Source of the DNA: Candidatus Fluviicola riflensis
Lineage (GTDB): Bacteria > Bacteroidota > Bacteroidia > Flavobacteriales_D > Crocinitomicaceae
Direction: 5' to 3'
DNA: 64,000 nt
Assembly: GCA_002243285.1 (NCBI GenBank)
Contig: CP022585.1
Coordinates: 1,330,669-1,394,668 of the forward strand
In this document: one piece after another, positions 24,845 to 59,568 of the stretch
Layout of the letters: each line of letters starts with the position of its first letter
How positions within the stretch are numbered: the stretch's first letter is position 1
Made by a program: the position numbers and the translations under genes
Notes under the pieces: generated by a model
Told to the model about the DNA's origin: nothing
The model's database searches: none
Seen by the model: the letters and a program-made list of their open reading frames with translations, nothing else

Positions 24845-26251
24845 TTATTGAATGGACAGATTCATGGTTTGAACTGTGAGGTCGGTATTGGCCGTTTCAT
24901 TTTCAACCCACACTTCTATGTAATCGCTTGGAGCCAGCGTTACCCGGCATGAAAGTGTTACCGGTCCCTGATCTGTACTGTTAATAAGTTTCACCTCTTG
25001 TCTTGACTCCGGAAGAATAACCCCGTTTTTAGCAATATAGAATGAAAAGAACTTATTGGAAGACGGTTGAGTAGCCGTAAGCGAGCACATCACCTGGAAA
25101 GAACGTGTTTGACTACCCGTATAAGTAAGCCGGTTATCGGCAGGAGATGTCATACGGAACAAACTAACGGCAGTTGTAGTACCTAAAATCTTTACCGGAA
25201 CACCCATAACACCAATTACCGTCTGAATGGCCGTTGTAACATACATATTGCCACCGGCTACCGCATCTTTTTCGGTATTGAGTCCGGTTGCTTCCACTTC
25301 CCATGGGTTAGTGAAAGAACCGTTCACATACGTTCCGTCACCAACAAACATCACCACTTTTACAGACCCGGCAACCAAACTGGTAATGCCGCTGATGTCT
25401 AATGCCGTTGCTGTATTGGCAGCGTATGCAAGTCGGTCACCACCCAGGATCTGAATCACATTAAAAGTACCGATGAATTTTTCATACACATTAAAATTCG
25501 AGGCATCCCAAAGCGAGTTATTGATAACCACATTGTTGTCATTCTGGAACGTTATTCCGTTCGTATTGGAAAAAAAAGCAACCGTTGCAATGAAAACCGT
25601 GCCGCCAACATTCGCAATAGTCCCGATGCTATTACATCCCAGGAAATAGCAATTTTGGATGATCATGTTTTGGGCTGTACTTCCAGCGTCGATGTTAAAA
25701 ATACTTCCGGAAGCCGCTATGAGACTCATGTATCGGATGTTCCCGGTTTTGTTTCCGGTAAACATTTCTGCAGCACCGGTATAAACCAGTTTGTCATTGG
25801 CTGCATCATCACCCCTGACCGTACAGCCATTTAGGTTGATCATATCGGCTAGAACAATCGTGCCATTAATTTCATATTCCACGCCGGCTACCAATGTAAT
25901 GACACCGGCCACAGCGGCTGGAAAATCAGTCACCGATTTTACAAGTACATGATTATTCCGGTTTGTAGCCACAGCAATCCATCTGGTACCATTCCAGTAA
26001 TAATAACCATCTACCAGCGTTCCACCATCACTGTATACAAGTGTTCCTTCTGCAACCGCTGCGGTGAGGGGGGCAGAACTGGTTAAACTGTTCAGTGCAA
26101 CTCTTGGTGGAAGAAACCCTTTGTCAGTGCTTTCCAATTCAAGGAGCGAATTTGCATTAATGGTATTGGGATTGTCTCCAATTTTTACCTGTGCAAAAAG
26201 TTGAGTTGCGCTAAGAACCAGCGCAACGAGCATAAGTGTGTTTGTTTTCAT
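24845..26251 (-). CDS. Secreted hypothetical protein, possible C1q/TNF-like jelly-roll C-terminus
   Basis: It has a signal peptide (MKTNTLMLVALVLSATQLFAQ) and a conserved-looking N-terminal segment, IGDNPNTINANSLLELESTDKGFLPPRV. The middle is Gly/Asn/Thr-rich. The C-terminal ~110 aa (FSFYIAKNG....VTLSCRVTLAPSDYIEVWV) resembles the C1q fold pattern. An 11-nt gap separates it from the downstream T9SS gene. Confidence 0.7.
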   Translation of the reverse strand: MKTNTLMLVALVLSATQLFAQVKIGDNPNTINANSLLELESTDKGFLPPRVALNSLTSSAPLTAAVAEGTLVYSDGGTLVDGYYYWNGTRWIAVATNRNNHVLVKSVTDFPAAVAGVITLVAGVEYEINGTIVLADMINLNGCTVRGDDAANDKLVYTGAAEMFTGNKTGNIRYMSLIAASGSIFNIDAGSTAQNMIIQNCYFLGCNSIGTIANVGGTVFIATVAFFSNTNGITFQNDNNVVINNSLWDASNFNVYEKFIGTFNVIQILGGDRLAYAANTATALDISGITSLVAGSVKVVMFVGDGTYVNGSFTNPWEVEATGLNTEKDAVAGGNMYVTTAIQTVIGVMGVPVKILGTTTAVSLFRMTSPADNRLTYTGSQTRSFQVMCSLTATQPSSNKFFSFYIAKNGVILPESRQEVKLINSTDQGPVTLSCRVTLAPSDYIEVWVENETANTDLTVQTMNLSIQ

Positions 26252-26360
26252 AATTGTAGAAGTTTTAGTATTCTATCTGGTTGAGTACTTGGTAGATACC
26301 TAATTCGTTTTTACAGATACCATGGCGGCTTGGTAGACCGCAATACTCTGTAATTAATAT

Positions 26361-26945
26361 ATCATGATAGTTGATCAGATACGATACAAAATGTACAAAT
26401 GGTTGATTTAAAAGAACAAAAAGAGGGTTTCGTCGATTTTAATTAACTCATTGACAGCTATTTTGACTTAACTGTTAATTGATTTCACCGTATTTCCCGC
26501 AAGCATAATTGTGGAAAACCGCAACTCCTATTGATGTTTTGTCTAAAAATCTAAAGGAATTCGGACTCATTAAAATGCTGTAATGTAACATTTATAGAGG
26601 TTTCAGGTGTTTTTCGATTAATTCAGATCTAAAATAAAGAAACCAGATGCCATGTGACTTGTATTTACTATGATTATTGATTGATTACACTATTGCATGT
26701 ATAAATGGTCGATTTAAAGGAGCAAAAGAGGGTTTTGTCGCATTTAATCAACTTGTTGATAGTTATTTTAACTTAACTGTTAATTGATTTTACCGTATTT
26801 CCCGCAAGTATAATTGCGGAGAACCACAATCTGTACTGACTTTTTGTCTAAAGGTCTAAGGAATTCGAACGCGTAAAACTCAAATAACATACAATTCACA
26901 AGGTTTTAAACGTTTTGCGATTAACTAAGATCTAAAATAACGTGA
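26361..26945. repeat. Tandem direct duplication of a ~306-bp noncoding unit (2 copies)
   Basis: ATGTACAAATGGTTGATTTAAAAG... at 26391 aligns with ATGTATAAATGGTCGATTTAAAGG... at 26697, a period of 306 bp. The most conserved core is ACTTAACTGTTAATTGATTT(C/T)ACCGTATTTCCCGCAAG(C/T)ATAATTG(T/C)GGA at 26466-26516 and 26771-26821. No ORF of 60 aa or more lies in 26252-27089. Confidence 0.85.
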
Positions 26946-27089
26946 GTTCGGGATAAGAATTCTGTCAGATCGCCGCAGCGGACTGAAAAAAAAGAGCGCG
27001 CAGAACGAGAATGAAGTAAAAGAGTGGTGCAACGAGAATCGAACACCAAAACGAATAAAGATTGCTCTATTTCAGTACTTTTATGAGCA

Positions 27090-27653
27090 ATGTTAGAACT
27101 CTTTCAATATTTCAATAATTTCCACAAGCTTTCAAAAGAAGCTGAAAACGCTATTATTGAAATATCCAATGAATTAAAAATAAAGAAGAACACAATAATC
27201 CAGGATATAGGACAAACTTGTAAGACAATTTATTTCATCAAAACAGGATTTGCCCGGATTTACTATTTCAAAGAGGATATTGAGATTACCGAATCCTTTG
27301 CATTCGAAAACAATATTCTAGCACGAGTAGAGAGTTTATTCCACAACAAACCTTCAAAAAAAGCAATTCAACTTTTAGAAGATTCTGAACTAATTGCTAT
27401 CAATGCTAATTTACTATTCAAATTGTATGACAAATTCCCGGAAATCGAACGTTTGTTTCGTTTGATTTTTGAATCTGCTTATGTTGATACCGTGAATCGA
27501 ATTGAAAACATTCAGTTTCATACAGCAGAGGAAAGATATAAGATGCTTCTGAATGAATCTTCAAATGTGATAAAACGAGTTCCATTAAAGCTTATAGCAT
27601 CTTATTTAGGAATCACACCAGTTAGTTTAAGCCGAATCAGAGCGATTAAGTGA
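27090..27653 (+). CDS. Crp/Fnr-family transcriptional regulator
   Basis: It has an N-terminal cyclic-nucleotide-binding-like beta-roll (IYFIKTGFARIYY) and a C-terminal HTH (LKLIASYLGITPVSLSRIR). Confidence 0.8.
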   Translation: MLELFQYFNNFHKLSKEAENAIIEISNELKIKKNTIIQDIGQTCKTIYFIKTGFARIYYFKEDIEITESFAFENNILARVESLFHNKPSKKAIQLLEDSELIAINANLLFKLYDKFPEIERLFRLIFESAYVDTVNRIENIQFHTAEERYKMLLNESSNVIKRVPLKLIASYLGITPVSLSRIRAIK

Positions 27654-27693
27654 TTTCTTATCAAATGTAAAGTGTTTTGATGATGGTTGACAA

Positions 27694-27701
27694 TAGATTT
27701 G
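27694..27701 (+). promoter_or_regulatory. Bacteroidota-type -7 promoter box (TAnnTTTG)
   Basis: TAGATTTG lies 27 nt upstream of the MFS transporter ATG at 27729. Confidence 0.4.
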
Positions 27702-27728
27702 CATTGTTAATTCAAGTATCAAAACAAA

Positions 27729-28928
27729 ATGGCAAGAGAAATAAAACTAGGACTGAAAGAGAATCTCAATCAATTTATCTTGTTGATTATCGTAAATGCT
27801 TTCGTCGGTGGAATGGTTGGTTTGGAGCGCACTATTCTTCCTCAAATCGCAGAAAAGGAATTTCATCTTGCCGTAAACACAACCATCTTATCTTTCATTA
27901 TTGTTTTCGGAATTGTCAAAGCCATCACAAATTATTTCACGGGTTCCTTAGCGAATAGATTCGGCAGAAAAAACCTGCTAATTCTAGGTTGGGTTGTTGG
28001 AATTCCCGTTCCTTTTATCTTAATGCTTGCAGACAACTGGAACTGGATCATTTTTGCCAATGTTTTACTGGGAATCAATCAAGGTCTTACATGGTCTAGT
28101 ACGGTAGTCATGAAAATTGATTTGGTCGGTGAAAAAAATCGGGGATTAGCCATGGGACTAAACGAGTTTGCGGGTTATTTGTCGGTTGCTGTCATTGCCT
28201 TTTTAACAGGATGGATTGCAAGCGAACACGGATTAAGACCTTATCCTTTTTATATAGGAATTTTACTTTCCATTTTAGGATTAACTCTTTCGGTGTTCTT
28301 TATTAAAGATACCCGTCATCATGTAGGAATAGAGTCAGGTGATAGCAAGATTTCAAGATTGAAAAACATTTTTTGGGACACGACTTTGTTTGATCGAAAC
28401 TTAGGCTCTGTAACGCAAGCAGGATTGGTTAATAATCTAAATGATGGCATGGCATGGGGACTGTTTCCAATCCTTCTGGCACAAAAGAATTACAGTATTG
28501 GAGATATCGGCATTATTACAGCGACTTATCCAGCAGTTTGGGGAATTGGACAACTATTCACAGGCAAAATGTCAGATCACTTTCGTAAAAAGAGTATGCT
28601 ATTTTGGGGTATGTTATTGCAAGGTGTTGCGTTACTGTTTTTCGTCTTTGCCAATTCTTTTTCTCACTACATCATTCTTTCCTGTGTTCTTGGATGGGGA
28701 ACAGCCATGGTTTATCCAACATTTTTAGCAACTATCGCAGAAAACACTCATCCTATTGACAGAGCCAAAAGTATTGGTGTATTTCGATTATGGAGAGACC
28801 TTGGATATGCCATTGGAGCCATTTTAACAGGAATAATAGCAGATACATTTGGAATCAATGCCTCGATAATAGTCATTGGTGTATTAACTGTTTTTTCATC
28901 AGTAGTAATTGCGCGAAGAATGAAATAA
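27729..28928 (+). CDS. MFS transporter
   Basis: A 399-aa protein with about 12 predicted TM helices. The motif GSLANRFGRKN between TM2 and TM3 is the MFS signature. Confidence 0.85.
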   Translation: MAREIKLGLKENLNQFILLIIVNAFVGGMVGLERTILPQIAEKEFHLAVNTTILSFIIVFGIVKAITNYFTGSLANRFGRKNLLILGWVVGIPVPFILMLADNWNWIIFANVLLGINQGLTWSSTVVMKIDLVGEKNRGLAMGLNEFAGYLSVAVIAFLTGWIASEHGLRPYPFYIGILLSILGLTLSVFFIKDTRHHVGIESGDSKISRLKNIFWDTTLFDRNLGSVTQAGLVNNLNDGMAWGLFPILLAQKNYSIGDIGIITATYPAVWGIGQLFTGKMSDHFRKKSMLFWGMLLQGVALLFFVFANSFSHYIILSCVLGWGTAMVYPTFLATIAENTHPIDRAKSIGVFRLWRDLGYAIGAILTGIIADTFGINASIIVIGVLTVFSSVVIARRMK

Positions 28929-29292: not shown

Positions 29293-29312
29293 CGATCATG
29301 CTTTTCTTTTTG

Positions 29313-29384
29313 TGATCCCGAAGGGAATCGAACCCATATCTAAAGTTTAGGAAACTTCTATTCTATCCGTTGAACTACGGGACC
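29313..29384 (-). tRNA. tRNA-Arg (anticodon CCT)
   Basis: The reverse complement is GGTCCCGTAGTTCAACGGATAGAATAGAAGTTTCCTAAACTTTAGATATGGGTTCGATTCCCTTCGGGATCA. It folds as a cloverleaf with a 7-bp acceptor (one G:U), D arm GTTC/GAAT, anticodon stem GAAGT/ACTTT with loop TTCCTAA, and T arm with a GGG-TTCGATT-CCC loop (one T:T mismatch). CCA is not encoded. Confidence 0.85.
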
Positions 29385-31808: not shown

Positions 31809-32537
31809 ATGAGAAAAGAAGTAAAACCTTACGGCAGGGAAGATCAGTCGAAGAAAGAAGAAGTAGCCGAAATGTTCAATAATATTTCCGGCAAATACGA
31901 CTTTCTCAATCATTTTTTATCGGTTGGAATAGATAAATTGTGGCGCAAGAAAGCGGTGAACATGCTGCGCGAAATCAATCCGAAACGCATTCTGGACCTC
32001 GCTACCGGTACCGGTGATTTTGCCATCGAAAGTCTGAAACTGGACCCGGATGAAATCATCGGGATCGATATTTCGGAAGGAATGCTCGAAGTGGGCCGCA
32101 AGAAAATGATCAAACGCAAAGTCGATCACATCATTTCCATGCACCTGGGCGATTCGGAAGCATTGCCGTTTGAAGATGGGCATTTTGATGCATTCACCGT
32201 AGGTTTTGGCGTTCGTAATTACCAGAACCTCGAAAAAGGATTGTCTGAAATGTTGCGCGTTTTACGTCCGGAAGGAATGGGAATTGTTTTGGAATTCTCA
32301 AAACCGAAGAAATTTCCGATCAAACAATATTATGCGTTCCATTCCAGGTACATCATTCCGTTTTTTGGAAAACGCATTTCCAACGACGAACGAGCCTATG
32401 CTTATTTACCCGAATCGGTAGCGGCATTTCCCGAAGGAAAAGATTTTGAAGACATTCTCACCAAAGTCGGCTACCGCAATGTGAAGTCGCGTTTGGTAGG
32501 CGGTGGCATTGCAACCATTTATTCCGGTATAAAATAA
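31809..32537 (+). CDS. ubiE: Demethylmenaquinone / ubiquinone methyltransferase UbiE/MenG
   Basis: Motifs are MFNNISGKYDFLNHFLS.G.D..WRK and the SAM motif ILDLATGTGD. The C-terminal part has YAYLPESV..FP.G.DF. Confidence 0.9.
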   Translation: MRKEVKPYGREDQSKKEEVAEMFNNISGKYDFLNHFLSVGIDKLWRKKAVNMLREINPKRILDLATGTGDFAIESLKLDPDEIIGIDISEGMLEVGRKKMIKRKVDHIISMHLGDSEALPFEDGHFDAFTVGFGVRNYQNLEKGLSEMLRVLRPEGMGIVLEFSKPKKFPIKQYYAFHSRYIIPFFGKRISNDERAYAYLPESVAAFPEGKDFEDILTKVGYRNVKSRLVGGGIATIYSGIK

Positions 32538-35897: not shown

Positions 35898-36821
35898 ATG
35901 ATCAACGAAATATTACTACTCTTTATTTCTATCATACCTGCATGTTTACTGGCTTTTGTCGCTCCATCCTTTTTTAAGGAATTATGGCTTGACCTGCGTT
36001 TGGGGCGAATTTTTCATTACTTCATGTTGTTCGCGTTTGGGTTTGTCGTGCAAAAAGGTACGATTGCTTTGCTGGAAGAAGTTTCGCCCGATACCTGGCT
36101 CAAATTCCCGCTGTACTTCATTGTTTTGGCTTATGCCGCCGTTTTTGCCATTGCCACCAACAACAAAGAAGACCTGGAAATCGATAAAATCACCAATGTC
36201 AATCGTCCGCTGGTGCGCAATGCCGTAAATCCGAGGAACTATCTCATAGTAGCTTCAATTAGTTTAATCGTTTCTCTGGTAGTGGCTTTTTTAGCCGATC
36301 CGGTATTTTTTGCTGCGGTTACCGGAATTTCATTGGTCTATTACATCTATTCCTGCAAGCCATTTAAAATCAAACGTTTTGTATTTCTGGCGAAGCTCTT
36401 GATTGGTGTAAATTCGTTGATTTCAGCACTTTGCGGGTTTCTTTTAGCAGGGGGTGAATTACTTGATTTTCCTCTATTCTGGTTGATTTTCATTCTTGTT
36501 CCCGTTTCATTGATGGCCAATTTCATTGACTTGAAAGATACGGCCGGTGACAGGCTTGCGGGAATAAAAACACTTCCCGTGATTTGGGGCGAACCGACCG
36601 CAAAACGGCTCATCGCCTTGTTCACCTTTTCGGCTTATGCGTATGTGTTTTTCTATTTTAATTCGCTGCTCATTGGTTTGACGTTGTTGCTCACGGTTTC
36701 AGTACATATCTATTTGATCTTTCGGGAACCGTATCAGGAAAAACCGTTATTTTTATTGCATAACAGCCTGTTTTTGGGGCTGATACTGTTATTGTTGATT
36801 CGGCCATACATCCATTACTAG
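35898..36821 (+). CDS. UbiA-family membrane prenyltransferase
   Basis: Both Asp-rich motifs are present: NNKEDLEID (NxxxDxxxD) and DLKDTAGD (DxxDxxxD), followed by GIKTLPV. It has about 8-9 TM helices. Confidence 0.85.
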   Translation: MINEILLLFISIIPACLLAFVAPSFFKELWLDLRLGRIFHYFMLFAFGFVVQKGTIALLEEVSPDTWLKFPLYFIVLAYAAVFAIATNNKEDLEIDKITNVNRPLVRNAVNPRNYLIVASISLIVSLVVAFLADPVFFAAVTGISLVYYIYSCKPFKIKRFVFLAKLLIGVNSLISALCGFLLAGGELLDFPLFWLIFILVPVSLMANFIDLKDTAGDRLAGIKTLPVIWGEPTAKRLIALFTFSAYAYVFFYFNSLLIGLTLLLTVSVHIYLIFREPYQEKPLFLLHNSLFLGLILLLLIRPYIHY

Positions 36822-36825
36822 CGCT

Positions 36826-37833
36826 TTGAAAAAACGAACCATCTTTCTTTTTCTGCTGCTCTTGAACCTTTCGCTAACGGTTCATGGGCAAGTATCGAAG
36901 AATCAGCTTGTAGTTTCATCTGATCGGGCAGCCGTTTTTCTGAAACATGCACAAACAGAATCGGGATCGATAGAAGATTCCACGAATGCGTTATTCAATG
37001 TATGGGAAACGATTTTGGTGGCAGATGCTTTACTGGAGCGATTTCCAACTTCTGACACAACAGTTCAGCGCTCCCTGAAATGGCTGAAATCAATGGAAAA
37101 TGAAGATCAGCTGATTTGTCATAATGCACAGTGCAATCAACGTTTTTGTATCGAAACATCGGCGCTTTATGTGCAATTACTGGCTAAACTATCTTCTCCG
37201 GCCGAACAGCAATCCCGGCTAAACGCAATCAGTCAATTACAGGAAAAAAATGGCTGCTGGAAAGTTGGGAATCCTGATGTGTTCTACAAAACCGATTTTC
37301 CTTCCGTAACAGGCTTTGTACTCAACCTGTTTGATGAACTACATTTCAAAAGTTACGGAATCGATTCGGCTTATCGTTTCCTGATCAATAGTCAGTTGGA
37401 AAACGGTTCCTGGGGACAAAGCTGGGAATATTATGGTTGCACGGGGTATGCGCTCTGGCAATGCCTTCCCGCGTTAAAAAGATGTGCGTACGGGGGAAAA
37501 ACGTTAAAAAAGGGGAAAGCATTTATCCTTTCAACACAATTGACCGACGGAAGCTGGGCTGTTTCTAACGATAGTCTTTCCAATCACATTTCTGTCGAAT
37601 TACAAACCGCTTTTATGCTCAGTTGCCTGCAACAGGAAACCGACGAGCTTTCAAAAAAAGCGTTTGAAAAAGGCCTTTCTTTTTTACTGAGCAAACAACT
37701 GTCAAATGGTGCCTGGGAAGGTGGTTTTTTCCCTATTCCGAGTGAACGCTACAAGAAACGGGAATACCTGATTGCAACAGCATTGATTTATAAGCTGCTG
37801 ATTGCGGCACAAAACAATTCCGGTAATGGGTAA
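36826..37833 (+). CDS. Exported prenyltransferase/squalene-cyclase-repeat (alpha/alpha-toroid) protein
   Basis: The start is TTG at 36826, 4 nt after the UbiA stop, and gives signal peptide MKKRTIFLFLLLLNLSLTVHGQ. It has QW-like repeats QLENGSWGQ, QLTDGSWA, QLSNGAWEGG and EKNGCWK. I found no DxDD motif. Confidence 0.7.
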   Translation: MKKRTIFLFLLLLNLSLTVHGQVSKNQLVVSSDRAAVFLKHAQTESGSIEDSTNALFNVWETILVADALLERFPTSDTTVQRSLKWLKSMENEDQLICHNAQCNQRFCIETSALYVQLLAKLSSPAEQQSRLNAISQLQEKNGCWKVGNPDVFYKTDFPSVTGFVLNLFDELHFKSYGIDSAYRFLINSQLENGSWGQSWEYYGCTGYALWQCLPALKRCAYGGKTLKKGKAFILSTQLTDGSWAVSNDSLSNHISVELQTAFMLSCLQQETDELSKKAFEKGLSFLLSKQLSNGAWEGGFFPIPSERYKKREYLIATALIYKLLIAAQNNSGNG

Positions 37834-38785
37834 ATTGGTTTGGTCTTGCCTTCTTGTGTTAGCGCTTTTCAGCTGCGGGACCGGCAAATTGAAATCCGGA
37901 GAATTGTTTCTTTCTCCCGATTCGGGGAACGATAAAATTTACATTCTTTCTGCTTTTCCGCAACAAGCAGATAGTTCCGGACTTTTTCTGAGTGCGCTTT
38001 TGGTAAAACACACAGATGAAGATAACAGGCAGCTTACCACTTTTGTTACCACTTACAATCGTTCCACACACGAGGTAGCAACCATTCCGTTTTTTACCGA
38101 TTCGCTTATGTCTCTGGACAGTAAACGGTTTCCGTTGATACTGAAATCGGGCACTACAGATTCATTGCAACCTTCATTTACTTTTTCCCTGGACCGTAAT
38201 TCACTTGAATTGACAGTTGATGATCTTAAAGGAAGGAAAACCGGACAGACGCTTAAGTTTCCCAAACAGCAACCATTCAAATCGGTAGCAACTGGCACTG
38301 AATTTAAATTAACGGCGATCAAACCACTTTCTGTTACACTTACTAAATGGAATAATGAACCACAGGATCAATCGAATGTGATGTTCTTGCACACGCTTGA
38401 TAACGGTGAATCGTTGTTTCAGTCACAATCGGCCAATAATTATTGCTGGCTCGATTTCAGTACCAGCGAGACCGCAAGTCATAGTCTTTTCTTTCAATAC
38501 GATTCATTGGGGAAGATCACTCCAATTTACTCTACATTACCAGACGATGTTCTTCCGTCCATTCGACTCGATTCGCTTTTCCTGTTGAAACAACATGACA
38601 GCCAGGTATCAACTGCATTCACACTAATTTATCCGACTGAAAAAAGCGGATTGGAAAACTTAGAAATCAAATTGGCTCCGTTGAAACAAAGACGAATTTT
38701 AACAAAAAGCACTTTTTCTGTAAGAGCGGTTGATGTTCTACTAAACGATCAGTTGTTTGGAACCGGAATTCTCTATATATTGTAA
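37826..38785 (+). CDS. Hypothetical lipoprotein
   Basis: The ATG at 37826 overlaps the upstream stop (ATGGGTAA, 8-nt overlap). It has a lipobox LALFSC. It is beta-rich and I recognise no motif with confidence. Confidence 0.7.
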   Translation: MGKLVWSCLLVLALFSCGTGKLKSGELFLSPDSGNDKIYILSAFPQQADSSGLFLSALLVKHTDEDNRQLTTFVTTYNRSTHEVATIPFFTDSLMSLDSKRFPLILKSGTTDSLQPSFTFSLDRNSLELTVDDLKGRKTGQTLKFPKQQPFKSVATGTEFKLTAIKPLSVTLTKWNNEPQDQSNVMFLHTLDNGESLFQSQSANNYCWLDFSTSETASHSLFFQYDSLGKITPIYSTLPDDVLPSIRLDSLFLLKQHDSQVSTAFTLIYPTEKSGLENLEIKLAPLKQRRILTKSTFSVRAVDVLLNDQLFGTGILYIL

Positions 38786-38792
38786 CTGATTC

Positions 38793-40013
38793 ATGCGGAA
38801 ATTCCAATTATTTTTTAAACAAGTTGTAGCTAAAATAGAAGACTATACGCTTCCGCTGAAACGTTATTTATTGCTGTTCATCGCTATTTTAAGTTTGCGT
38901 CTTTGCCTCGAATTCTTTGCCAATAACCGGTTGTTCCAGTCAGATGACGTGATGCATATCGGACTTTGGTTCTTGTTTATCGTCCAGGCCTTCATGTTGC
39001 AATTACACTTGTTTTCGAAGGTGAAAGTGGAACAGATCGTTAAATTGGTCATCTGCTGTTTCTCCATTGCGCTCACCGCTCCAATTATAGACCTCATTGT
39101 TTCACAAGGCAAATTTTCGAAGATGAATTATCTTTCCGTGAATTCGTTTTCAGACATTGCCTGGTCGTATATTACCATTGGTGGCGCTAGCTTGAGTCGT
39201 GGAGCAACGTTGGGAATCCGGACAGAAATTGTGTTACTCGTAATAGCCAGTTTCAACTACGTATATCTCAAAACAGGAAATATCTGGCGTTCTTTGGCTG
39301 GAACTTTTTCGATTTACACCGTTCTGTTCCTTTCGGGAGCTATTCCTTATTTTTTGGGAAAAATCAATACGGCTTTCAACCTTACTTATGGTCAAAACGA
39401 CCAATCTTCCAGTTACTTGCTTTTTACATTAGACATTGGTTTGTTCCTGTTTCTGGCGTATCGCTACAACCGGAAGATGATTTCGTTTAAGTTTGATTTT
39501 CCTATTGTTTTCAGAATATTTGGTTCAATTGGATTGGTTGTCTTAGGAGCATACTTAGCCCGAAAAGCCTATCCGGACAATTGGATGCTTGATCCCACCA
39601 CGCTTTATTATTTCCCTTTATTGGCAGTTGTGTTACTAATGCTCTATACATACGAAGGGTATGGAAAGCAGCAGCTAAAAAATGAAGGAACAAATTTTAC
39701 TGTTCAAAACGGTTTATTGCTGGTACTAGTGTGTACAAGTGCGTGTATTTCCTTTCACACGTTATTTGCCGTATTATTTACCTGGGGAATGCTTTTTTTC
39801 CTGTACGAAAAACCGCTTCGGTTCATCAACATTTCATACCTGTCTCCTTTATTACAAGCCGGTTTAATGCTTGGTTACCTGTTGATTGGCTTCATGGCTT
39901 TTGGTGCTCCAATGGTAGGAATGGAAATATCTGTTATATTTCTCACACTAATTGTTTCATTTTTAATCTATTTGGTAATGTTTTATATTAATAGATATAT
40001 TTACAAAAAGTAA
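38793..40013 (+). CDS. Hypothetical polytopic inner-membrane protein
   Basis: A 406-aa protein with about 10-12 hydrophobic helices, starting 7 nt after the lipoprotein gene. I found no catalytic Asp-rich UbiA motifs. Confidence 0.7.
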   Translation: MRKFQLFFKQVVAKIEDYTLPLKRYLLLFIAILSLRLCLEFFANNRLFQSDDVMHIGLWFLFIVQAFMLQLHLFSKVKVEQIVKLVICCFSIALTAPIIDLIVSQGKFSKMNYLSVNSFSDIAWSYITIGGASLSRGATLGIRTEIVLLVIASFNYVYLKTGNIWRSLAGTFSIYTVLFLSGAIPYFLGKINTAFNLTYGQNDQSSSYLLFTLDIGLFLFLAYRYNRKMISFKFDFPIVFRIFGSIGLVVLGAYLARKAYPDNWMLDPTTLYYFPLLAVVLLMLYTYEGYGKQQLKNEGTNFTVQNGLLLVLVCTSACISFHTLFAVLFTWGMLFFLYEKPLRFINISYLSPLLQAGLMLGYLLIGFMAFGAPMVGMEISVIFLTLIVSFLIYLVMFYINRYIYKK

Positions 40014-40020
40014 CTACTAC

Positions 40021-41304
40021 ATGCTTATGAAAAGATCTTTTAAACTAAAAGGTTCACTATTCACGTTATTTTTATTTTTTATCGCATCCAATTCGTTTGG
40101 ACAGGTCACTATTTGGTCAGAAAACTTCAACAATGGTTGTGCAAGTAATTGTATCGCTTCTACCTGGAACGGCTGGACCATTCTTGATAACGATGGTGGA
40201 GTAACAGGTGGAGCACCCAATGACTGGTTTGTGAGTTGTGCCGAAGAAGGAATCACTCCCCCGGGCTGCGGCTCCAGCTGTATAGGAGATGCCAGTTTGC
40301 ATATTGGTGCAAATCCTGGGGCAGGTGGTGATATGGGGGCCAGTTACAACGAAACCGGCGCAACCAATGCTACATTCAGAACAGCTGTATCACCAACAGT
40401 GAACACAACTACCTATTTAGGGGTGATTACGCTTTCATTCGATTTCATTGCTTTTGGTAGTGCTGGTTGTTCTGATGATCGCCTTCAGTTGCGTTTGAGT
40501 ACAGACAACGGTGCTACATGGCCTGCAGGCTATCAATATTGTTTAACCAGCGTCTGCTGTGGTGCTTGCAACGGTTACAGTCAGGGGCAATGGACAACCT
40601 ATACTTTAGTCCTTCCGGCCATATTCAGCAACAATTCTAATGTCAGACTAGGTTTTAACTGGCTTAACAATGGTAACGGATCTGGCACCGATCCTTCAGC
40701 AGCTATAGATGATATTCGATTTACGACCCCCCTTCCACTTTCGGTTGACCTTCTCAGTTTTTCTGCTGAAAAAAGTTCATCAGGTACTAATGTTTCCTGG
40801 AATGTTGAAAACGAACGAAGCTTTTCTCGTTATGAATTAGAGCGTTCCTATGAAGGTGGTGAGTTTTCGTTTACCAAGATTCATACTGTAAACGGAAATT
40901 GCTCCGGCGATGATCCGTGTACGTATTCCTACAAAGACATCAGTCATACAAAAACTGTTTATTACCGCTTGAAAATGATTGACGAAAATGGCGAATTTTC
41001 CTATTCTTCAATCATCAGCCTGGATGAATCAGTTGTTAACGCCAATACTTTTACGCTTATTTCCGATTATGTGGAGAATGACGTTTTACAGGTGAAACTA
41101 AGCGCGAAGAAAAAATCATCTGCTAAATTCGTTTTGTATAACATTGCCGGAAAAGCGGTTGTTACAGAAAGTGATGTGCCGATCAAGTCAGGATTCAATC
41201 AAAAAAACCTGGATATCAATAAACTTTCAAACGGTGTTTACATTCTGAAGATCTATTTTGAGAACGACGATAAGGTGTTGAGCGCGAAGGTGATTAAATC
41301 TTAA
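40021..41304 (+). CDS. Secreted protein with T9SS type A C-terminal sorting domain
   Basis: It starts 7 nt after the membrane-protein gene and has signal peptide LFLFFIASNSFGQ. The N-terminal domain is Cys-rich. An internal module reads VSWNVENE.SFSRYELERSY.GG.F. The C-terminus is FVLYNIAGK...NGVYILKIYFENDDKVLSAKVIKS. Confidence 0.8.
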   Translation: MLMKRSFKLKGSLFTLFLFFIASNSFGQVTIWSENFNNGCASNCIASTWNGWTILDNDGGVTGGAPNDWFVSCAEEGITPPGCGSSCIGDASLHIGANPGAGGDMGASYNETGATNATFRTAVSPTVNTTTYLGVITLSFDFIAFGSAGCSDDRLQLRLSTDNGATWPAGYQYCLTSVCCGACNGYSQGQWTTYTLVLPAIFSNNSNVRLGFNWLNNGNGSGTDPSAAIDDIRFTTPLPLSVDLLSFSAEKSSSGTNVSWNVENERSFSRYELERSYEGGEFSFTKIHTVNGNCSGDDPCTYSYKDISHTKTVYYRLKMIDENGEFSYSSIISLDESVVNANTFTLISDYVENDVLQVKLSAKKKSSAKFVLYNIAGKAVVTESDVPIKSGFNQKNLDINKLSNGVYILKIYFENDDKVLSAKVIKS

Positions 41305-43928: not shown

Positions 43929-44198
43929 TTAACGACGTAAACCTAATTCTTTTACCAAAGCACGGTATTTTTCAATATCCTTACGCTTTAAGTAATCCAA
44001 TAAACTACGACGCTTACCAACCAACAATTGCAATGCGCGTTGCGTTCCGTAGTCTTTGCGGTTCTTTTTCAAATGCTCTGTTAAGTGAGCAATACGGTAA
44101 GTAAACAATGCTACCTGACCTTCTGTTGAACCTGTATTCGTTTCAGCACCTCCGTGCTTTGCGAAAATCTCTTTTTTCTTTTCTGTATTTAAGTACAT
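43929..44198 (-). CDS. rpsO: 30S ribosomal protein S15
   Basis: An 89-aa protein with TGSTEGQVALFT.RI..LTEHLK.N.KD..... and GKRR.LL.YL, the canonical S15 pattern. Confidence 0.95.
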   Translation of the reverse strand: MYLNTEKKKEIFAKHGGAETNTGSTEGQVALFTYRIAHLTEHLKKNRKDYGTQRALQLLVGKRRSLLDYLKRKDIEKYRALVKELGLRR

Positions 44199-44257
44199 GC
44201 CAATATTACTTGAATGATTTTTATGTAGTCATCCCGAACTTTTCGGATATAACGGTG

Positions 44258-44265
44258 CAAAGATA
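44258..44265 (-). promoter_or_regulatory. Bacteroidota-type -7 promoter box for rpsO
   Basis: The minus strand reads TATCTTTG, about 60 nt upstream of the rpsO ATG. Confidence 0.4.
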
Positions 44266-59498: not shown

Positions 59499-59568
59499 GA
59501 TACTATTTTGGCATTGGTGCAACTAAAATACGTTTTTTAACAGGTAATGGTTGCGTGGGGTGTTCTTT

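What the first reader, a model, noticed from the sequence alone, without database searches (positions are those of the whole stretch)
35898..41304. Uncharacterised 5-gene envelope operon: UbiA prenyltransferase, exported terpene-cyclase-like toroid, lipoprotein, polytopic membrane protein, T9SS cargo
Five plus-strand genes are packed with gaps of 4, -8 (ATGGGTAA overlap at 37826-37833), 7 and 7 nt, so they are almost certainly one transcript. Gene 1 is a UbiA-superfamily prenyltransferase with both catalytic Asp-rich motifs intact (NNKEDLEID and DLKDTAGD). Gene 2 has QW-like repeats (QLENGSWGQ, QLTDGSWA, QLSNGAWEGG) of the prenyltransferase/squalene-cyclase alpha/alpha-toroid fold, but unusually carries a cleavable signal peptide, uses a TTG start and lacks a DxDD motif. 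Gene 3 is a beta-rich lipoprotein, possibly a lipid-binding lipocalin/AttH-like fold, though that is only a guess. Gene 4 is a 406-aa protein of 10-12 TM helices with no recognisable motif. Its segment LYEKPLRFINISYLSPLLQAG loosely echoes the YS.KP.K.KRF..L..L segment of gene 1. Gene 5 is a Cys-rich secreted protein with a T9SS type A CTD. The operon contains no polyprenyl-diphosphate synthase, aromatic-acceptor biosynthesis gene or known quinone, carotenoid, flexirubin or ebo-cluster partner. The combination suggests an envelope-located prenyl-lipid modification or cyclisation system, or prenyl-lipid handling coupled to a surface protein. I do not recognise it as a described pathway.
Basis: partly seen in the sequence, partly recalled or inferred. 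Interest (0 to 1): 0.7.

Follow-up and report, generated by a model that had tools for sequence, protein, structure and literature searches.

The report
Conserved envelope isoprenoid-lipid gene module
Five tightly packed genes that travel together through at least three bacterial phyla encode a membrane prenyltransferase, a degenerate copy of it carrying an undescribed membrane domain, and three exported proteins. They most likely build and process an isoprenoid lipid at the cell surface, and I found no published pathway that matches.

Summary
The five + strand genes exist as described (gaps 4, -8, 7 and 7 nt). They form a real unit. In 32 of 32 related loci with enough flank, genes 1, 2, 4 and 5 co-occur. 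These loci come from Bacteroidota and from high-GC contigs binned as Holophagales and Myxococcaceae, and no other neighbour is conserved.

- **Gene 1:** an intact UbiA prenyltransferase outside every curated subfamily.
- **Gene 2:** an exported, single-domain squalene-hopene-cyclase-like toroid without a DxD(D) motif.
- **Gene 3:** an AttH/CrtC-family lipocalin lipoprotein (the family hydrates prenyl double bonds). The window's copy is degenerate and the gene is dispensable.
- **Gene 4 (new result):** not motif-less. It is a 6-TM domain absent from Pfam, fused to a decayed UbiA remnant. It descends from a ~500-aa "N-domain + active UbiA" fusion family whose named members are CPR bacteria, DPANN archaea and Omnitrophica.
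- **Gene 5:** its N-terminal jelly roll, which resembles a choice-of-anchor-J domain, is the most conserved piece (median 76% identity against 40-45% for the enzymes).

Best reading: a split prenyltransferase complex makes a prenylated lipid that is processed or carried in the periplasm and ends up with the surface protein. The function is inferred, not shown. I found no publication describing the module.

The parts
35898..36821 (+). Gene 1: catalytically intact UbiA-superfamily prenyltransferase (307 aa). It is orthologous to the UbiA half of the N-domain+UbiA fusion family.
   Evidence: Pfam PF01040 E 8.9e-31. It falls below every NCBIfam equivalog cut-off; the best is PRK12884 at 66 bits against 269. 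N88, N89, D92, D96, Y151, S152, K159, D211, K213, D214, G217 and D218 are invariant in 17 orthologues. It is 42% identical (E 2e-63) to residues 233-486 of fusion protein P0262, and hhalign gives E 3.5e-79.
36826..37833 (+). Gene 2: exported single-domain alpha/alpha-toroid of the squalene-hopene-cyclase type (335 aa, TTG start, Sec signal peptide ending VHG|Q). It has no DxD(D) motif.
   Evidence: SQHop_cyclase_C scores 52.5 bits. The family profile matches SHC at E 2.6e-26, 8pak at 2.7e-11 and MstE at 2.4e-5. N-terminal hydrophobic leaders are present in all 16 orthologues. Invariant residues are C98-H99-N100, C103, C108-x-E110-T111, N149-P150-D151, W200-E-Y-Y203 and G299-G-x-F-P303. No conserved DxD was found.
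37826..38785 (+). Gene 3: lipoprotein of the AttH/CrtC (Lipocalin_9) family (319 aa from the ATG). It evolves fast, is degenerate in the Fluviicola lineage and is absent from some loci.
   Evidence: The lipobox Cys17 is invariant. 14 of 20 orthologues hit PF17186, best E 5e-14, but the window's copy gives no hit. The Fluviicola-type copies have lost H54, Y265, QE288-289 and the SFWMGA and GNMY motifs. The gene is absent in L022, L028, L031, L032, L033 and L066.
38793..39443 (+). Gene 4, residues 1-217: a six-TM 'N-domain' with no Pfam, NCBIfam or PDB counterpart. It is the second most conserved piece of the module, and its conserved polar residues are predicted to lie near the periplasmic face.
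   Evidence: No family was found at E up to 10, and Foldseek against PDB gave nothing significant. hhalign to the N-terminal domain of the fusion family gives probability 100%, E 2.3e-48. E16, R36, E40, H55, P97, D100, Y113, G131, G141, E145, Y156, Y175 and P185 are shared by both families. Topology comes from the positive-inside rule applied to the AF2 helices. Median identity is 58%.
39444..40013 (+). Gene 4, residues 218-406: a decayed and truncated UbiA remnant (TM1-6 equivalent). The first Asp-rich motif is lost and the second half is missing; only the E-K-P-L-R-F loop is kept.
   Evidence: hhalign against gene 1 gives probability 96.7-97.4%, E 3.8e-10 to 1.4e-11. Against the fusion-family UbiA domain it gives probability 98.6%, E 9.9e-16. 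The only well-superposed Foldseek matches are the A. fulgidus UbiA homologue 4tq3-6 (probability 0.82-0.94, rmsd about 5 A). There is no Pfam UbiA hit, even in the 475-500 aa orthologues.
40021..40728 (+). Gene 5, residues 1-236: signal peptide plus a Cys-rich jelly-roll domain (choice-of-anchor-J / reelin-subrepeat-B / MAM-like). It is the most conserved element of the module.
   Evidence: Median identity is 76% outside the Fluviicola/Crocinitomicaceae loci, and 74-76% in the GC 70% loci L032 and L033. Ten Cys residues and the N-E-T, N-A-T and N-G-S triplets are invariant. NF038128 scores 36.5 bits against a cut-off of 30 in the L032 orthologue. Reelin_subrepeat-B gives sub-threshold hits in 6 orthologues. 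The AF2 model is a beta-sandwich, and Foldseek finds RPTPmu MAM, reelin and Eph ectodomains.
40729..41304 (+). Gene 5, residues 237-427: an FN3/Ig-like spacer and a T9SS type A C-terminal sorting domain (residues 353-427). This part is lineage-specific and is replaced or absent outside Bacteroidota.
   Evidence: Por_Secre_tail scores 32.3 bits and TIGR04183 31.3 bits. Strand-rich domains at 243-334 and 344-426 have pLDDT 78-93. The L032 orthologue is 257 aa with no tail, L033 carries teneurin-type EGF repeats, and L022 has Ig_7.

Best explanation
This is a self-contained envelope module for making and handling an isoprenoid (prenylated) lipid.

Gene 1 is the catalytic UbiA prenyltransferase. 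I infer that it works as a complex with gene 4. Gene 4 is what remains of a duplicated 'N-domain + UbiA' fusion enzyme: its UbiA half has decayed to a scaffold, while its N-domain stays strongly conserved. The UbiA active site and the E-K-P-L-R-F loop are predicted to be cytoplasmic. The conserved polar cluster of the N-domain (R36, E40, H55, D100, E145 and loop 105-139) is predicted to face the periplasm. The N-domain would therefore pass the prenylated product to the outer face of the inner membrane, or act on it there.

On that side, the prenyl chain would be bound, and possibly protonated, cyclised or hydrated, by the exported cyclase-like toroid (gene 2). In most lineages the AttH/CrtC-like lipocalin lipoprotein (gene 3) would take part as well. 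The end point is the extremely conserved jelly-roll domain of gene 5. This protein is exported and carries whichever surface-sorting tail the host lineage uses. It would bind, display or otherwise depend on the product.

Shown: gene identities, homologies, co-occurrence, export signals and the conservation gradient. Inferred: the complex, the topology, the chemistry and the nature of the acceptor.
For: - **Unit.** All four core genes are present in 32 of 32 loci with enough flank. The order is sometimes permuted (L024, L025, L032, L057) but the genes stay linked. Flanks differ, and no other gene is conserved. The module also occurs in loci with GC 0.65-0.72.
- **Gene 1.** The UbiA catalytic motifs are invariant.
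- **Gene 4.** It is an N-domain plus a UbiA remnant, and gene 1 corresponds to the UbiA half of ~500-aa fusion proteins. The N-domain and UbiA therefore work together in one chain elsewhere.
- **Lipocalin link.** A fusion-family member (P0274) carries CrtC_N and Lipocalin_9 domains C-terminal to the UbiA domain. Gene 3 orthologues hit Lipocalin_9.
- **AttH precedent.** All characterised AttH-like enzymes (CrtC, kievitone hydratase, hydroxy-GDGT synthase) hydrate an isoprene double bond (bioRxiv 10.1101/2025.10.20.683597; PMC4717167).
- **Gene 2.** It is of the SHC / monodomain class II cyclase type. MstE sets the precedent of a monodomain cyclase acting on a prenylated aromatic compound (PMC12414744).
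- **Export.** Genes 2, 3 and 5 all carry export signals.
- **Topology.** By the positive-inside rule, the conserved N-domain residues lie at the periplasmic side.
- **Constraint.** Median identities run gene 5 N-domain 76% > gene 4 N-domain 58% > gene 1 45% > gene 2 40% > gene 3 21%.
Against: - The module contains no prenyl-diphosphate synthase, acceptor-biosynthesis gene, flippase or transporter.
- Gene 2 has no conserved DxD or DxDD.
- Gene 3 shows no conserved HxW/YxD pair like CrtC. It is degenerate in the window and absent from several loci.
- The predicted UbiA active site and the three exported partners sit on opposite sides of the membrane, so a translocation step must be assumed.
- The near-invariance of the gene 5 domain is higher than expected for a simple small-molecule binder.
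- The CPR/DPANN fusion genes have no gene 2, 3 or 5 partners.
- Topology rests on the positive-inside rule and an AF2 model built from 20 sequences.
- There are no experimental data.
Confidence: 0.45

Rival explanations
1. Extracytoplasmic protein lipidation. The gene 5 jelly-roll domain is the substrate, not the receiver. While crossing the periplasm it is covalently modified, for example by thioether prenylation of one of its invariant cysteines, with the isoprenoid supplied by genes 1 and 4. The gene 4 N-domain and/or the Cys/His-bearing toroid of gene 2 would act as the transferase.
For: The two most constrained elements are the gene 5 N-domain (76%) and the periplasm-facing gene 4 N-domain (58%). 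This is the pattern expected for a substrate recognised by several enzymes. The domain has ten invariant Cys residues and invariant Gly/Asn-rich loops. Gene 2 carries an invariant C-H-N-x-x-C-x-x-x-x-C cluster; from my own knowledge, this resembles the Zn sites of protein prenyltransferase beta subunits and LanC, which are also alpha/alpha toroids. The C-terminal sorting tail of gene 5 changes with lineage while the N-domain does not. Some fusion-family genes sit among large surface or T9SS proteins (L095, L096).
Against: No bacterial periplasmic protein prenylation is known. The gene 2 profile matches cyclases, and no protein prenyltransferase beta subunit appears at E up to 1. No prenyl-diphosphate is expected in the periplasm. 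The invariant cysteines may simply be disulfides of a secreted domain. Most CPR/DPANN fusion genes have no conserved protein partner.
Confidence: 0.15
2. Lipid-linked donor system of the mycobacterial DPPR/arabinan type. Gene 1 would load a head group such as phosphoribosyl onto a polyprenyl phosphate at the cytoplasmic face. The gene 4 N-domain would be a new periplasm-facing transferase, analogous to GT-C enzymes, that moves the head group onto a surface acceptor. That acceptor could be gene 5, which has three invariant N-x-S/T triplets.
For: The N-domain has a conserved Asp/Glu/His/Arg cluster and a long conserved loop predicted on the periplasmic side. A UbiA-family enzyme plus polytopic periplasm-facing transferases is the established logic for Rv3806c and the Emb/Aft enzymes (PMC10994848 for Rv3806c; the rest from my own knowledge). 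N110-E-T, N116-A-T and N219-G-S are invariant in gene 5. The fusion family occurs in CPR/DPANN organisms, which are generally reported to lack lipid and quinone synthesis (PMC7242380 for CPR).
Against: The best subfamily similarities of gene 1 are to ChlG, DGGGPS and HPT-type prenyl-diphosphate users. No decaprenyl-phosphate phosphoribosyltransferase model appears in the hit list. Foldseek gives ArnT only at probability 0.07. This model gives no role to a cyclase-like toroid or an AttH-like lipocalin. The module contains no sugar-modifying enzymes.
Confidence: 0.1
3. Carotenoid tailoring, analogous to C45/C50 carotenoid pathways. Gene 1 would be a lycopene-elongase-like UbiA enzyme, gene 3 a CrtC-like 1,2-hydratase, and gene 2 an end-group cyclase or binder.
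For: UbiA-family lycopene elongases and carotenoid 1,2-hydratases work together in bacterioruberin synthesis (my own knowledge; PMC9122864 and PMC11364659 were listed but not read). CrtC is the founding AttH-family enzyme (PMC4717167). One fusion-family gene (L043) lies next to a 772-aa amino-oxidase/NAD_binding_8 protein, the family of phytoene desaturases. Many Bacteroidota are pigmented (my own knowledge).
Against: The module contains no crtB, crtI, crtY or other carotenoid gene, and none recurs in 36 loci. The hydratase-like and cyclase-like proteins are exported, unlike known carotenoid enzymes. Gene 3 lacks the HxW/YxD residues and is dispensable. This model explains neither gene 5 nor the CPR/DPANN distribution.
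Confidence: 0.06
4. Genes 2 and 3 are purely non-catalytic lipid chaperones and the module is an export route. An inner-membrane synthase (genes 1 and 4) hands an unmodified prenyl lipid to periplasmic carriers, which deliver it to the outer membrane or to gene 5.
For: Gene 2 lacks DxD(D). Gene 3 has few invariant residues, with median identity 21%. Both folds have hydrophobic cavities suited to isoprenoid chains (my own knowledge). Gene 3 is a lipoprotein, like many envelope lipid carriers.
Against: Gene 2 keeps six invariant acidic residues and many invariant aromatic residues, which is more than a passive carrier usually needs. The module works without gene 3 in several lineages. This is a variant of the best explanation rather than a distinct system.
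Confidence: 0.15

Closest known systems
[quoted passage not shown]
   Same: A membrane UbiA-type prenyltransferase (recalled, not checked here) is paired with a ~350-aa single-domain (beta-only) SHC-like toroid that lacks the canonical DxDD. The gene 2 profile matches MstE (6sbb, E 2.4e-5) and the other monodomain cyclases 8pak and 8paj. PMC12414744 describes MstE and its DxD motif.
   Different: Gene 2 has a signal peptide and no conserved DxD. There are no acceptor-biosynthesis genes. The module adds a pseudo-UbiA/N-domain protein, an AttH-like lipoprotein and a conserved surface protein, so the processing would occur in the envelope and not the cytoplasm.
Uncharacterised 'N-domain + UbiA' fusion proteins (~500 aa) whose named members are CPR bacteria, DPANN archaea and Omnitrophica
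   Same: The gene 4 N-domain matches the fusion N-domain (hhalign E 2.3e-48). Gene 1 matches the fusion UbiA domain (E 3.5e-79; 42% identity). The gene 4 C-terminal half matches the same UbiA domain with its motifs lost.
   Different: In the window the two functions lie on separate genes, one of which keeps a dead UbiA half. The fusion genes stand alone, with no gene 2, 3 or 5 partners. Nothing is known about their function either.
AttH-like hydratases (CrtC carotenoid 1,2-hydratase, kievitone hydratase, hydroxy-GDGT synthase Hgs)
   Same: The gene 3 family hits Lipocalin_9, the C-terminal domain of AttH/CrtC proteins. All characterised members add water to an isoprene double bond (bioRxiv 10.1101/2025.10.20.683597; PMC4717167). 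This fits a prenylated substrate.
   Different: No CrtC_N (PF07143) hit was found, and no conserved HxW/YxD catalytic residues. Gene 3 is a lipoprotein, is degenerate in the window and is absent in some lineages.
ebo cluster (EboA-F, with the UbiA-like EboC / Ubi-297)
   Same: It is also a conserved multi-gene cluster of unresolved product, common in Bacteroidota, and built around a UbiA-family prenyltransferase (PMC9235831).
   Different: Gene 1 does not match the EboC model NF035940. None of eboA, B, D, E or F is present, and the partners are entirely different.
Mycobacterial DPPR synthase (Rv3806c) with periplasm-facing GT-C arabinosyltransferases
   Same: The logic is the same: a UbiA-family enzyme at the cytoplasmic face feeds a polytopic protein whose active site faces the periplasm (PMC10994848; my own knowledge).
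   Different: Gene 1 resembles the ChlG/DGGGPS/HPT type rather than phosphoribosyltransferases. The N-domain shows no GT-C fold match. The module has no epimerase or phosphatase genes.

Membership tests
UbiA prenyltransferase superfamily (gene 1) | Pfam PF01040 above the gathering score | tested here: met
   107.5 bits against a cut-off of 34.2, residues 57-276.
UbiA prenyltransferase superfamily (gene 1) | Two Asp-rich Mg/diphosphate motifs (NDxxDxxxD-type and DxxxD-type) | tested here: met
   N88-N89-x-x-D92-x-x-x-D96 and D211-x-K213-D214-x-x-G217-D218 are invariant in 17 orthologues.
Named UbiA subfamilies (MenA, UbiA/COQ2, CyoE/CtaB, ChlG/BchG, DGGGPS, HPT, MqnP, EboC) | Score above the NCBIfam equivalog cut-off | tested here: not met
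   The best is PRK12884 at 66.3 bits against 269. ChlG scores 63.7 against 313, DGGGPS 51.7 against 353 and MenA 33.3 against 555. EboC is not listed.
UbiA prenyltransferase superfamily (gene 4 C-terminal half) | Homology to UbiA plus retention of the Asp-rich motifs | tested here: not met
   Homology is supported (hhalign probability 96.7-98.6%; Foldseek to 4tq3-6). However, motif 1 aligns to a variable region, motif 2 and the last helices are missing, and there is no Pfam hit. It is a pseudo-enzyme remnant, not a member in the functional sense.
Class II terpene cyclase (SHC/OSC type) (gene 2) | Alpha/alpha-toroid with QW-type repeats (Pfam SQHop_cyclase_C) | tested here: met
   52.5 bits against a cut-off of 26.1. 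The family profile matches SHC at E 2.6e-26.
Class II terpene cyclase (SHC/OSC type) (gene 2) | Catalytic DxDD motif (DxD in MstE) | tested here: not met
   No DxD is conserved in 16 orthologues. The invariant acids are D51, E61, E110, D151, E201 and E313.
Class II terpene cyclase (SHC/OSC type) (gene 2) | Beta-gamma didomain architecture and cytoplasmic or membrane-face location | tested here: not met
   It is a single domain of 335 aa. Signal-peptide-like N-termini are present throughout the family. Scores lie far below the TIGR01787/TIGR01507 cut-offs.
AttH/CrtC lipocalin family (gene 3) | Pfam Lipocalin_9 (PF17186) and CrtC_N (PF07143) domains | tested here: inconclusive
   14 of 20 orthologues hit PF17186 (best E 5e-14), but the window's copy does not, and PF07143 is not detected in any orthologue.
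AttH/CrtC lipocalin family (gene 3) | Catalytic His-x-Trp and Tyr-x-Asp residues of CrtC | tested here: not met
   No such pairs appear among columns conserved at 70% or more. Only C17, P103, D112 and Y317 are invariant. Residue definitions come from PMC4717167.
T9SS type A cargo (gene 5) | C-terminal Por_Secre_tail / TIGR04183 domain plus an N-terminal signal peptide | tested here: met
   PF18962 scores 32.3 bits against 27, and TIGR04183 scores 31.3 against 23, residues 353-427. The hydrophobic leader ends FGQ.
Choice-of-anchor J domain (gene 5 N-domain) | NCBIfam NF038128 above cut-off | tested here: inconclusive
   The L032 orthologue scores 36.5 bits against 30. The window's copy gives no listed hit. 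Reelin_subrepeat-B is sub-threshold in all copies.
ebo cluster | EboC-type UbiA together with eboA, B, D, E and F | tested here: not met
   Gene 1 gives no NF035940 hit, and no such neighbours occur in 36 loci.

The most novel reading that the evidence does not exclude
The module is an extracytoplasmic protein-lipidation machine. The undescribed six-TM N-domain of gene 4 would use the isoprenoid made by the UbiA enzyme to modify the near-invariant surface domain of gene 5 covalently on the periplasmic side, possibly with the Cys/His-bearing toroid of gene 2. The stand-alone N-domain+UbiA fusion proteins of CPR bacteria and DPANN archaea would carry out the same chemistry on their own surface proteins or scavenged lipids.
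Probability: 0.12. Interest if true: 0.9.

Novelty: new variant of a known kind. Interest (0 to 1): 0.62.

Why it matters
If the reading is right, this would be an isoprenoid pathway whose tailoring steps happen outside the cytoplasm. I know of no precedent for a cyclase-like and a hydratase-like enzyme acting on a prenyl lipid there.

The module also ties a prenyl lipid to one of the many 'choice-of-anchor' surface domains whose roles are unknown.

It gives a genetically approachable handle, in cultivable Bacteroidota, on a large unstudied enzyme family. That family (N-domain + UbiA) has 892 clusters at 50% identity, and its named members are CPR, DPANN and Omnitrophica. Lineages of that kind are reported to lack lipid synthesis (PMC7242380 for CPR), so why they keep a prenyltransferase is unexplained.

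Finally, it is a clean example of an enzyme fusion that duplicated and then split into a catalytic subunit and a pseudo-enzyme subunit.

Tried and rejected
1. **Foldseek of the gene 4 model against PDB.** No significant global match. Transporter hits have TM-scores of 0.17 or less. Only the local UbiA match was kept.
2. **N-domain against UbiA, and N-domain against the gene 4 C-half, by hhalign.** No signal (probability below 1%). The N-domain is therefore not a further UbiA repeat. This also serves as a negative control for TM-composition artefacts.
3. **Pfam and NCBIfam on eight N-domains at E up to 10.** Only scattered chance hits.
4. **P0288 (825 aa) as a natural UbiA-toroid fusion.** hhalign probability 5.7%, so the idea was dropped.
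5. **Direct hhalign of the gene 3 family to the AttH part of P0274.** No signal. The link rests on shared Pfam families only.
6. **N-terminal half of gene 2 against PDB.** Only chance hits to a methyltransferase. The idea that C108-x-E110-T111 replaces DxDDTA remains an unsupported positional guess.
7. **Neighbourhoods of ten fusion-family genes.** No conserved functional partner. A UvrD-KsgA block recurs in three CPR loci and is probably lineage synteny.
8. **Sigma-70 promoter and terminator scan.** 12 promoter-like sites against 12.9 expected, which is uninformative, and Bacteroidota promoters are not covered.
9. **Literature.** The Lipocone paper links UbiA to a different neighbourhood. Ubi-297 is EboC. 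The DPANN paper mentions a generic UbiA. The Moosmann 2020 paper was not held. None of eight full-text searches found this operon.
10. **Flanking genes.** The neighbours were assigned by eye from the translations, not scanned: a UbiE/MenG-like methyltransferase at 31809-32537, a PorT-like protein, a TrmH-like methyltransferase and PNPase. The two tested by tblastn (TrmH-like, PNPase) are not conserved beyond the closest Fluviicola loci, no flank family recurs across the 36 loci, and so they were not counted as part of the module.

Full report
**Observation.** The window carries five + strand ORFs at 35898-36821, 36826-37833 (TTG start), 37826-38785 (ATG; an upstream TTG at 37802 is also open), 38793-40013 and 40021-41304. 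The gaps are 4, 7 and 7 nt. Genes 2 and 3 overlap by 8 nt; the sequence ATGGGTAA at 37826-37833 and the TAG-cgct-TTG junction at 36819-36828 were read directly. A 199-nt gap separates gene 1 from a divergent TrmH-like gene (assigned by eye). Gene 5 is followed by 286 nt and the convergent PNPase gene. The GC content of the block (0.409) is close to that of the window (0.431).

**Domain identities.**
- Gene 1 is a UbiA-family protein (PF01040, 107.5 bits). It falls far below every NCBIfam equivalog cut-off. The nearest models are PRK12884, ChlG, BchG, DGGGPS and HPT, and MenA scores 33 bits against 555. The nearest solved structures are chlorophyll synthase (E 1.6e-9), the A. fulgidus UbiA homologue and DGGGPS. 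Both Asp-rich motifs and the YSCxPxxxK loop are invariant in 17 orthologues.
- Gene 2 hits SQHop_cyclase_C (52.5 bits). A profile of 16 orthologues matches squalene-hopene cyclase at E 2.6e-26 and the single-domain cyclases 8pak, 8paj, 6ij1 and MstE. Complement, alpha-2-macroglobulin and pectate lyase reach only E 0.1-1. It is therefore a terpenoid-cyclase-type toroid.
- Gene 2 departs from that type in three ways. It is a single domain, every orthologue starts with a signal-peptide-like leader, and no DxD or DxDD is conserved. The invariant acids are D51, E61, E110, D151, E201 and E313, next to an invariant C-H-N-x-x-C-x-x-x-x-C-x-E-T segment.
- Gene 5 has a T9SS type A C-terminal domain above cut-off.

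**The module is a unit.** A profile of gene 4 retrieved 36 loci from species-representative genomes, and a profile of gene 5 retrieved 48 metagenome loci.
- tblastn and HMM searches show the same genes side by side throughout. In 32 of 32 loci with at least 4.5 kb on both sides, genes 1, 2, 4 and 5 are all present.
- Clustering all ORFs of the 36 loci gives exactly five recurrent families and nothing else, and the flanks differ between lineages.
- Gene order is occasionally permuted: gene 5 comes first in L024, L025 and L057, and gene 1 comes last in L032. Linkage is nevertheless kept.
- Record titles name Fluviicola, Crocinitomicaceae, Chitinophagaceae (Ferruginibacter, Sediminibacterium), Saprospiraceae, Spirosomataceae, Cytophagales, a Holophagales MAG and a Myxococcaceae MAG. 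The last two loci, and the unbinned metagenome locus L066, have GC 0.65-0.72, so they are not mis-binned Bacteroidota DNA.

**Gene 4 is the main new result.** It has no Pfam or NCBIfam hit. An AF2 model (pLDDT 81.5) shows an N-terminal amphipathic helix and twelve TM helices.
- Foldseek finds no significant PDB match. The only well-superposed hits are the A. fulgidus UbiA homologue (probability 0.82-0.94, rmsd about 5 A over about 170 columns).
Residues 218-389 of gene 4 align to residues 14-202 of gene 1 at probability 96.7%, E 3.8e-10.
- An exhaustive HMM search found 892 cluster representatives. Beyond the ~400-aa orthologues, these are ~500-aa proteins in which the first ~230 residues match the N-terminal half of gene 4 and the remainder is a complete, Pfam-positive UbiA domain.
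- With the alignments cut into halves:

| Comparison | Probability | E-value |
|---|---|---|
| Gene 4 N-half vs fusion N-domain | 100% | 2.3e-48 |
| Gene 4 C-half vs fusion UbiA domain | 98.6% | 9.9e-16 |
| Gene 1 vs fusion UbiA domain | 100% | 3.5e-79 |
| N-domain vs UbiA (negative control) | below 1% | no signal |

  (All.)
- Gene 1 is 42% identical to the UbiA part of P0262.
- In gene 4 the first Asp-rich motif aligns to a variable region and the second half of the fold is missing. Longer orthologues (475-500 aa) keep extra helices but still have no UbiA hit.

The simplest history is that an N-domain+UbiA enzyme duplicated. One copy lost the N-domain and became gene 1. The other let its UbiA half decay and became gene 4.

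**Distribution of the fusion family.** Source names place the fusion proteins in Nanoarchaeota, Patescibacteria/Parcubacteria and Omnitrophica. Archaeal and CPR-type neighbours in L037-L041 agree with this.

**Gene 3.** The window's copy has no family hit. It belongs to a fast-evolving family with an invariant lipobox cysteine. 14 of 20 members hit Pfam Lipocalin_9, the C-terminal domain of AttH/CrtC proteins, with best E 5e-14.
- The Fluviicola-lineage copies have lost most residues conserved elsewhere.
- The gene is absent from L022, L028, L031, L032, L033 and L066.
- One fusion-family protein (P0274) carries CrtC_N and Lipocalin_9 domains C-terminal to its UbiA domain. This is an independent link between this UbiA clade and AttH-like domains. 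By TM counting the fused domain should be extracytoplasmic, as gene 3 is.
- Characterised AttH-like enzymes (CrtC, kievitone hydratase and the recently reported hydroxy-GDGT synthase) all hydrate an isoprene double bond (bioRxiv 10.1101/2025.10.20.683597; PMC4717167). The CrtC catalytic HxW/YxD residues are not recognisable in gene 3, so it may bind its ligand rather than convert it.

**Gene 5.** The AF2 model (pLDDT 75.6) has three beta-rich domains: an N-terminal jelly roll, an FN3/Ig-like spacer and the T9SS tail. Foldseek returns MAM-, reelin- and Eph-type ectodomains.
- Orthologues give sub-threshold Reelin_subrepeat-B hits. The Holophagales orthologue passes the NCBIfam choice-of-anchor J cut-off.
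- The tail varies with lineage. It is absent in L032 (257 aa), replaced by teneurin-type EGF repeats in L033, and Ig_7 is present in L022.
- The N-domain is the most conserved element of the whole module. Median identities to the window outside the Fluviicola/Crocinitomicaceae loci are:

| Element | Median identity |
|---|---|
| Gene 5 N-domain | 76% |
| Gene 4 N-domain | 58% |
| Gene 1 | 45% |
| Gene 2 | 40% |
| Gene 4 UbiA remnant | 37% |
| Gene 5 spacer | 37% |
| Gene 3 | 21% |

- Ten cysteines and three N-x-S/T triplets are invariant.
- Every orthologue at 48% identity or more with enough flank sits in the module. Paralogues at 33-41% identity occur elsewhere without genes 1-4.

**Topology (inferred).** I applied the positive-inside rule to the AF2 helices of gene 4. 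Loops predicted inside carry 12 or more Lys/Arg, and loops predicted outside carry 4.
- This gives an N-in, C-in protein. The E-K-P-L-R-F loop is cytoplasmic, as is the homologous loop of UbiA enzymes.
- The long conserved loop 105-139 is periplasmic. The residues shared with the fusion family (R36, E40, H55, D100, E145) lie near the periplasmic ends of TM1-4.
- The module thus combines a cytoplasm-facing prenyltransferase, a membrane domain with a periplasm-facing conserved site, and three exported proteins.

**Mechanism.** I commit to the following model at about 45% confidence. Genes 1 and 4 form a split enzyme that prenylates an unidentified acceptor and presents the product at the outer face of the inner membrane. 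Gene 2, and gene 3 where present, bind the prenyl chain and possibly protonate, cyclise or hydrate it. The conserved domain of gene 5 receives, binds or depends on the product at the cell surface.
- For: the co-occurrence, the fusions, the family precedents and the export signals.
- Against: the missing canonical catalytic motifs in genes 2 and 3, the absence of donor, acceptor and flippase genes, and the unexplained near-invariance of gene 5.
- That near-invariance, together with the strong constraint on the periplasm-facing N-domain, keeps a more radical rival alive: covalent lipidation of gene 5 in the periplasm (about 15%).
- A lipid-linked donor/transferase model (about 10%) and carotenoid tailoring (about 6%) are weaker.
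- A carrier-only reading of genes 2 and 3 (about 15%) is a variant of the main model.

**Comparison with known systems.** The closest characterised paradigm is the MstE system, in which a monodomain class II cyclase acts on a prenylated aromatic compound (PMC12414744). That the substrate is made by a UbiA-type prenyltransferase is recalled and was not checked here. The window differs in the exported location, the absent DxD and the three extra components. The module is not the ebo cluster (PMC9235831), not MenA/UbiA/CyoE housekeeping, and not a canonical SHC. Eight full-text searches and the papers read turned up no description of this operon or of the N-domain+UbiA fusion family. The search covers open-access text only, so a subscription-journal report cannot be excluded.

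**Verdict.** I class the finding as a new variant of a known kind: prenyltransferase plus protonation-type tailoring enzymes, moved to the envelope and coupled to a pseudo-enzyme, an undescribed membrane domain and a conserved surface protein. Interest is 0.62. The biology is probably new and it opens a large unstudied enzyme family, but the function is still inferred.

Noticed in passing
L037-L046, L095-L097 (e.g. L040:7001-8524, L037:7001-8533); proteins P0262-P0492: A large uncharacterised family of ~500-aa proteins combines a six-TM N-domain unknown to Pfam with a complete UbiA domain. It has 892 representatives at 50% identity. Sources name its members as Nanoarchaeota, Patescibacteria/Parcubacteria and Omnitrophica, lineages of a kind reported to lack lipid synthesis. 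Occasional C-terminal additions include CrtC/AttH lipocalin (P0274) and TPR (P0306).
   Followed up: partly
L069-L083, L091 (e.g. L070:7956-9266): Paralogues of the gene 5 jelly-roll domain at 33-41% identity occur in metagenome contigs with no gene 1-4 homologue within 8 kb. The near-invariant operon-linked form is therefore a specialised branch of a wider surface-protein domain family.
   Followed up: partly
window 40348-40374 and 40675-40683 (gene 5 residues 110-118 and 219-221): Three N-x-S/T triplets (N-E-T, N-A-T, N-G-S) are invariant in 26 orthologues, within loops that AF2 models with low or middling confidence (block pLDDT 42-76). Their significance (glycosylation, metal or ligand site) is unknown.
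   Followed up: no
L043:4417-6735 (- strand): One fusion-family gene overlaps convergently with a 772-aa protein that has NAD_binding_8 and Amino_oxidase domains, the family that includes phytoene desaturases. This hints at a possible carotenoid link. It was seen in one pair of near-identical contigs only.
   Followed up: no
L096:73-12854: In a 288-kb metagenome contig, the intact fusion gene lies in a co-directional run of very large proteins without Pfam hits (838, 1124 and 710 aa). Two T9SS-tailed proteins follow, one of them with a transglutaminase core.
   Followed up: no
window 44196-44265 (-): An S15-Flavobacteria ribosomal protein leader (RF03161, 59.4 bits) lies upstream of the 89-aa ORF at 43929-44198, read by eye as rpsO. 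This fits a Flavobacteriia-type host.
   Followed up: yes
window 29312-29384 (-): tRNA-Arg(CCT), the only tRNA in the window.
   Followed up: yes
window 10839-13427 (-) and 15976-18603 (-): A three-domain LigD (phosphoesterase, ligase and primase-polymerase) and a cyanophycin synthetase-like gene. The 10-14 kb stretch has a strong AT skew (-0.23 to -0.26).
   Followed up: partly
window 15-5744 (+), 23457-24833 (-), 57738-59522 (-), 61981-63942 (-): The window holds several further T9SS cargo genes. One is a 1909-aa protein with Reelin_subrepeat-B, PKD and Ig_7 domains and a type A tail. Two carry CHU_C (type B) tails, one of them with SprB repeats. The 1909-aa protein shares only a short 'S-x-D-N-G-x-T-W' strand motif with gene 5.
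   Followed up: partly
window 26001-28000: This is the lowest-GC stretch of the window (0.346 against about 0.43). It lies between the 468-aa ORF without Pfam hits that ends at 26251 and an MFS transporter gene that starts at 27729.
   Followed up: no
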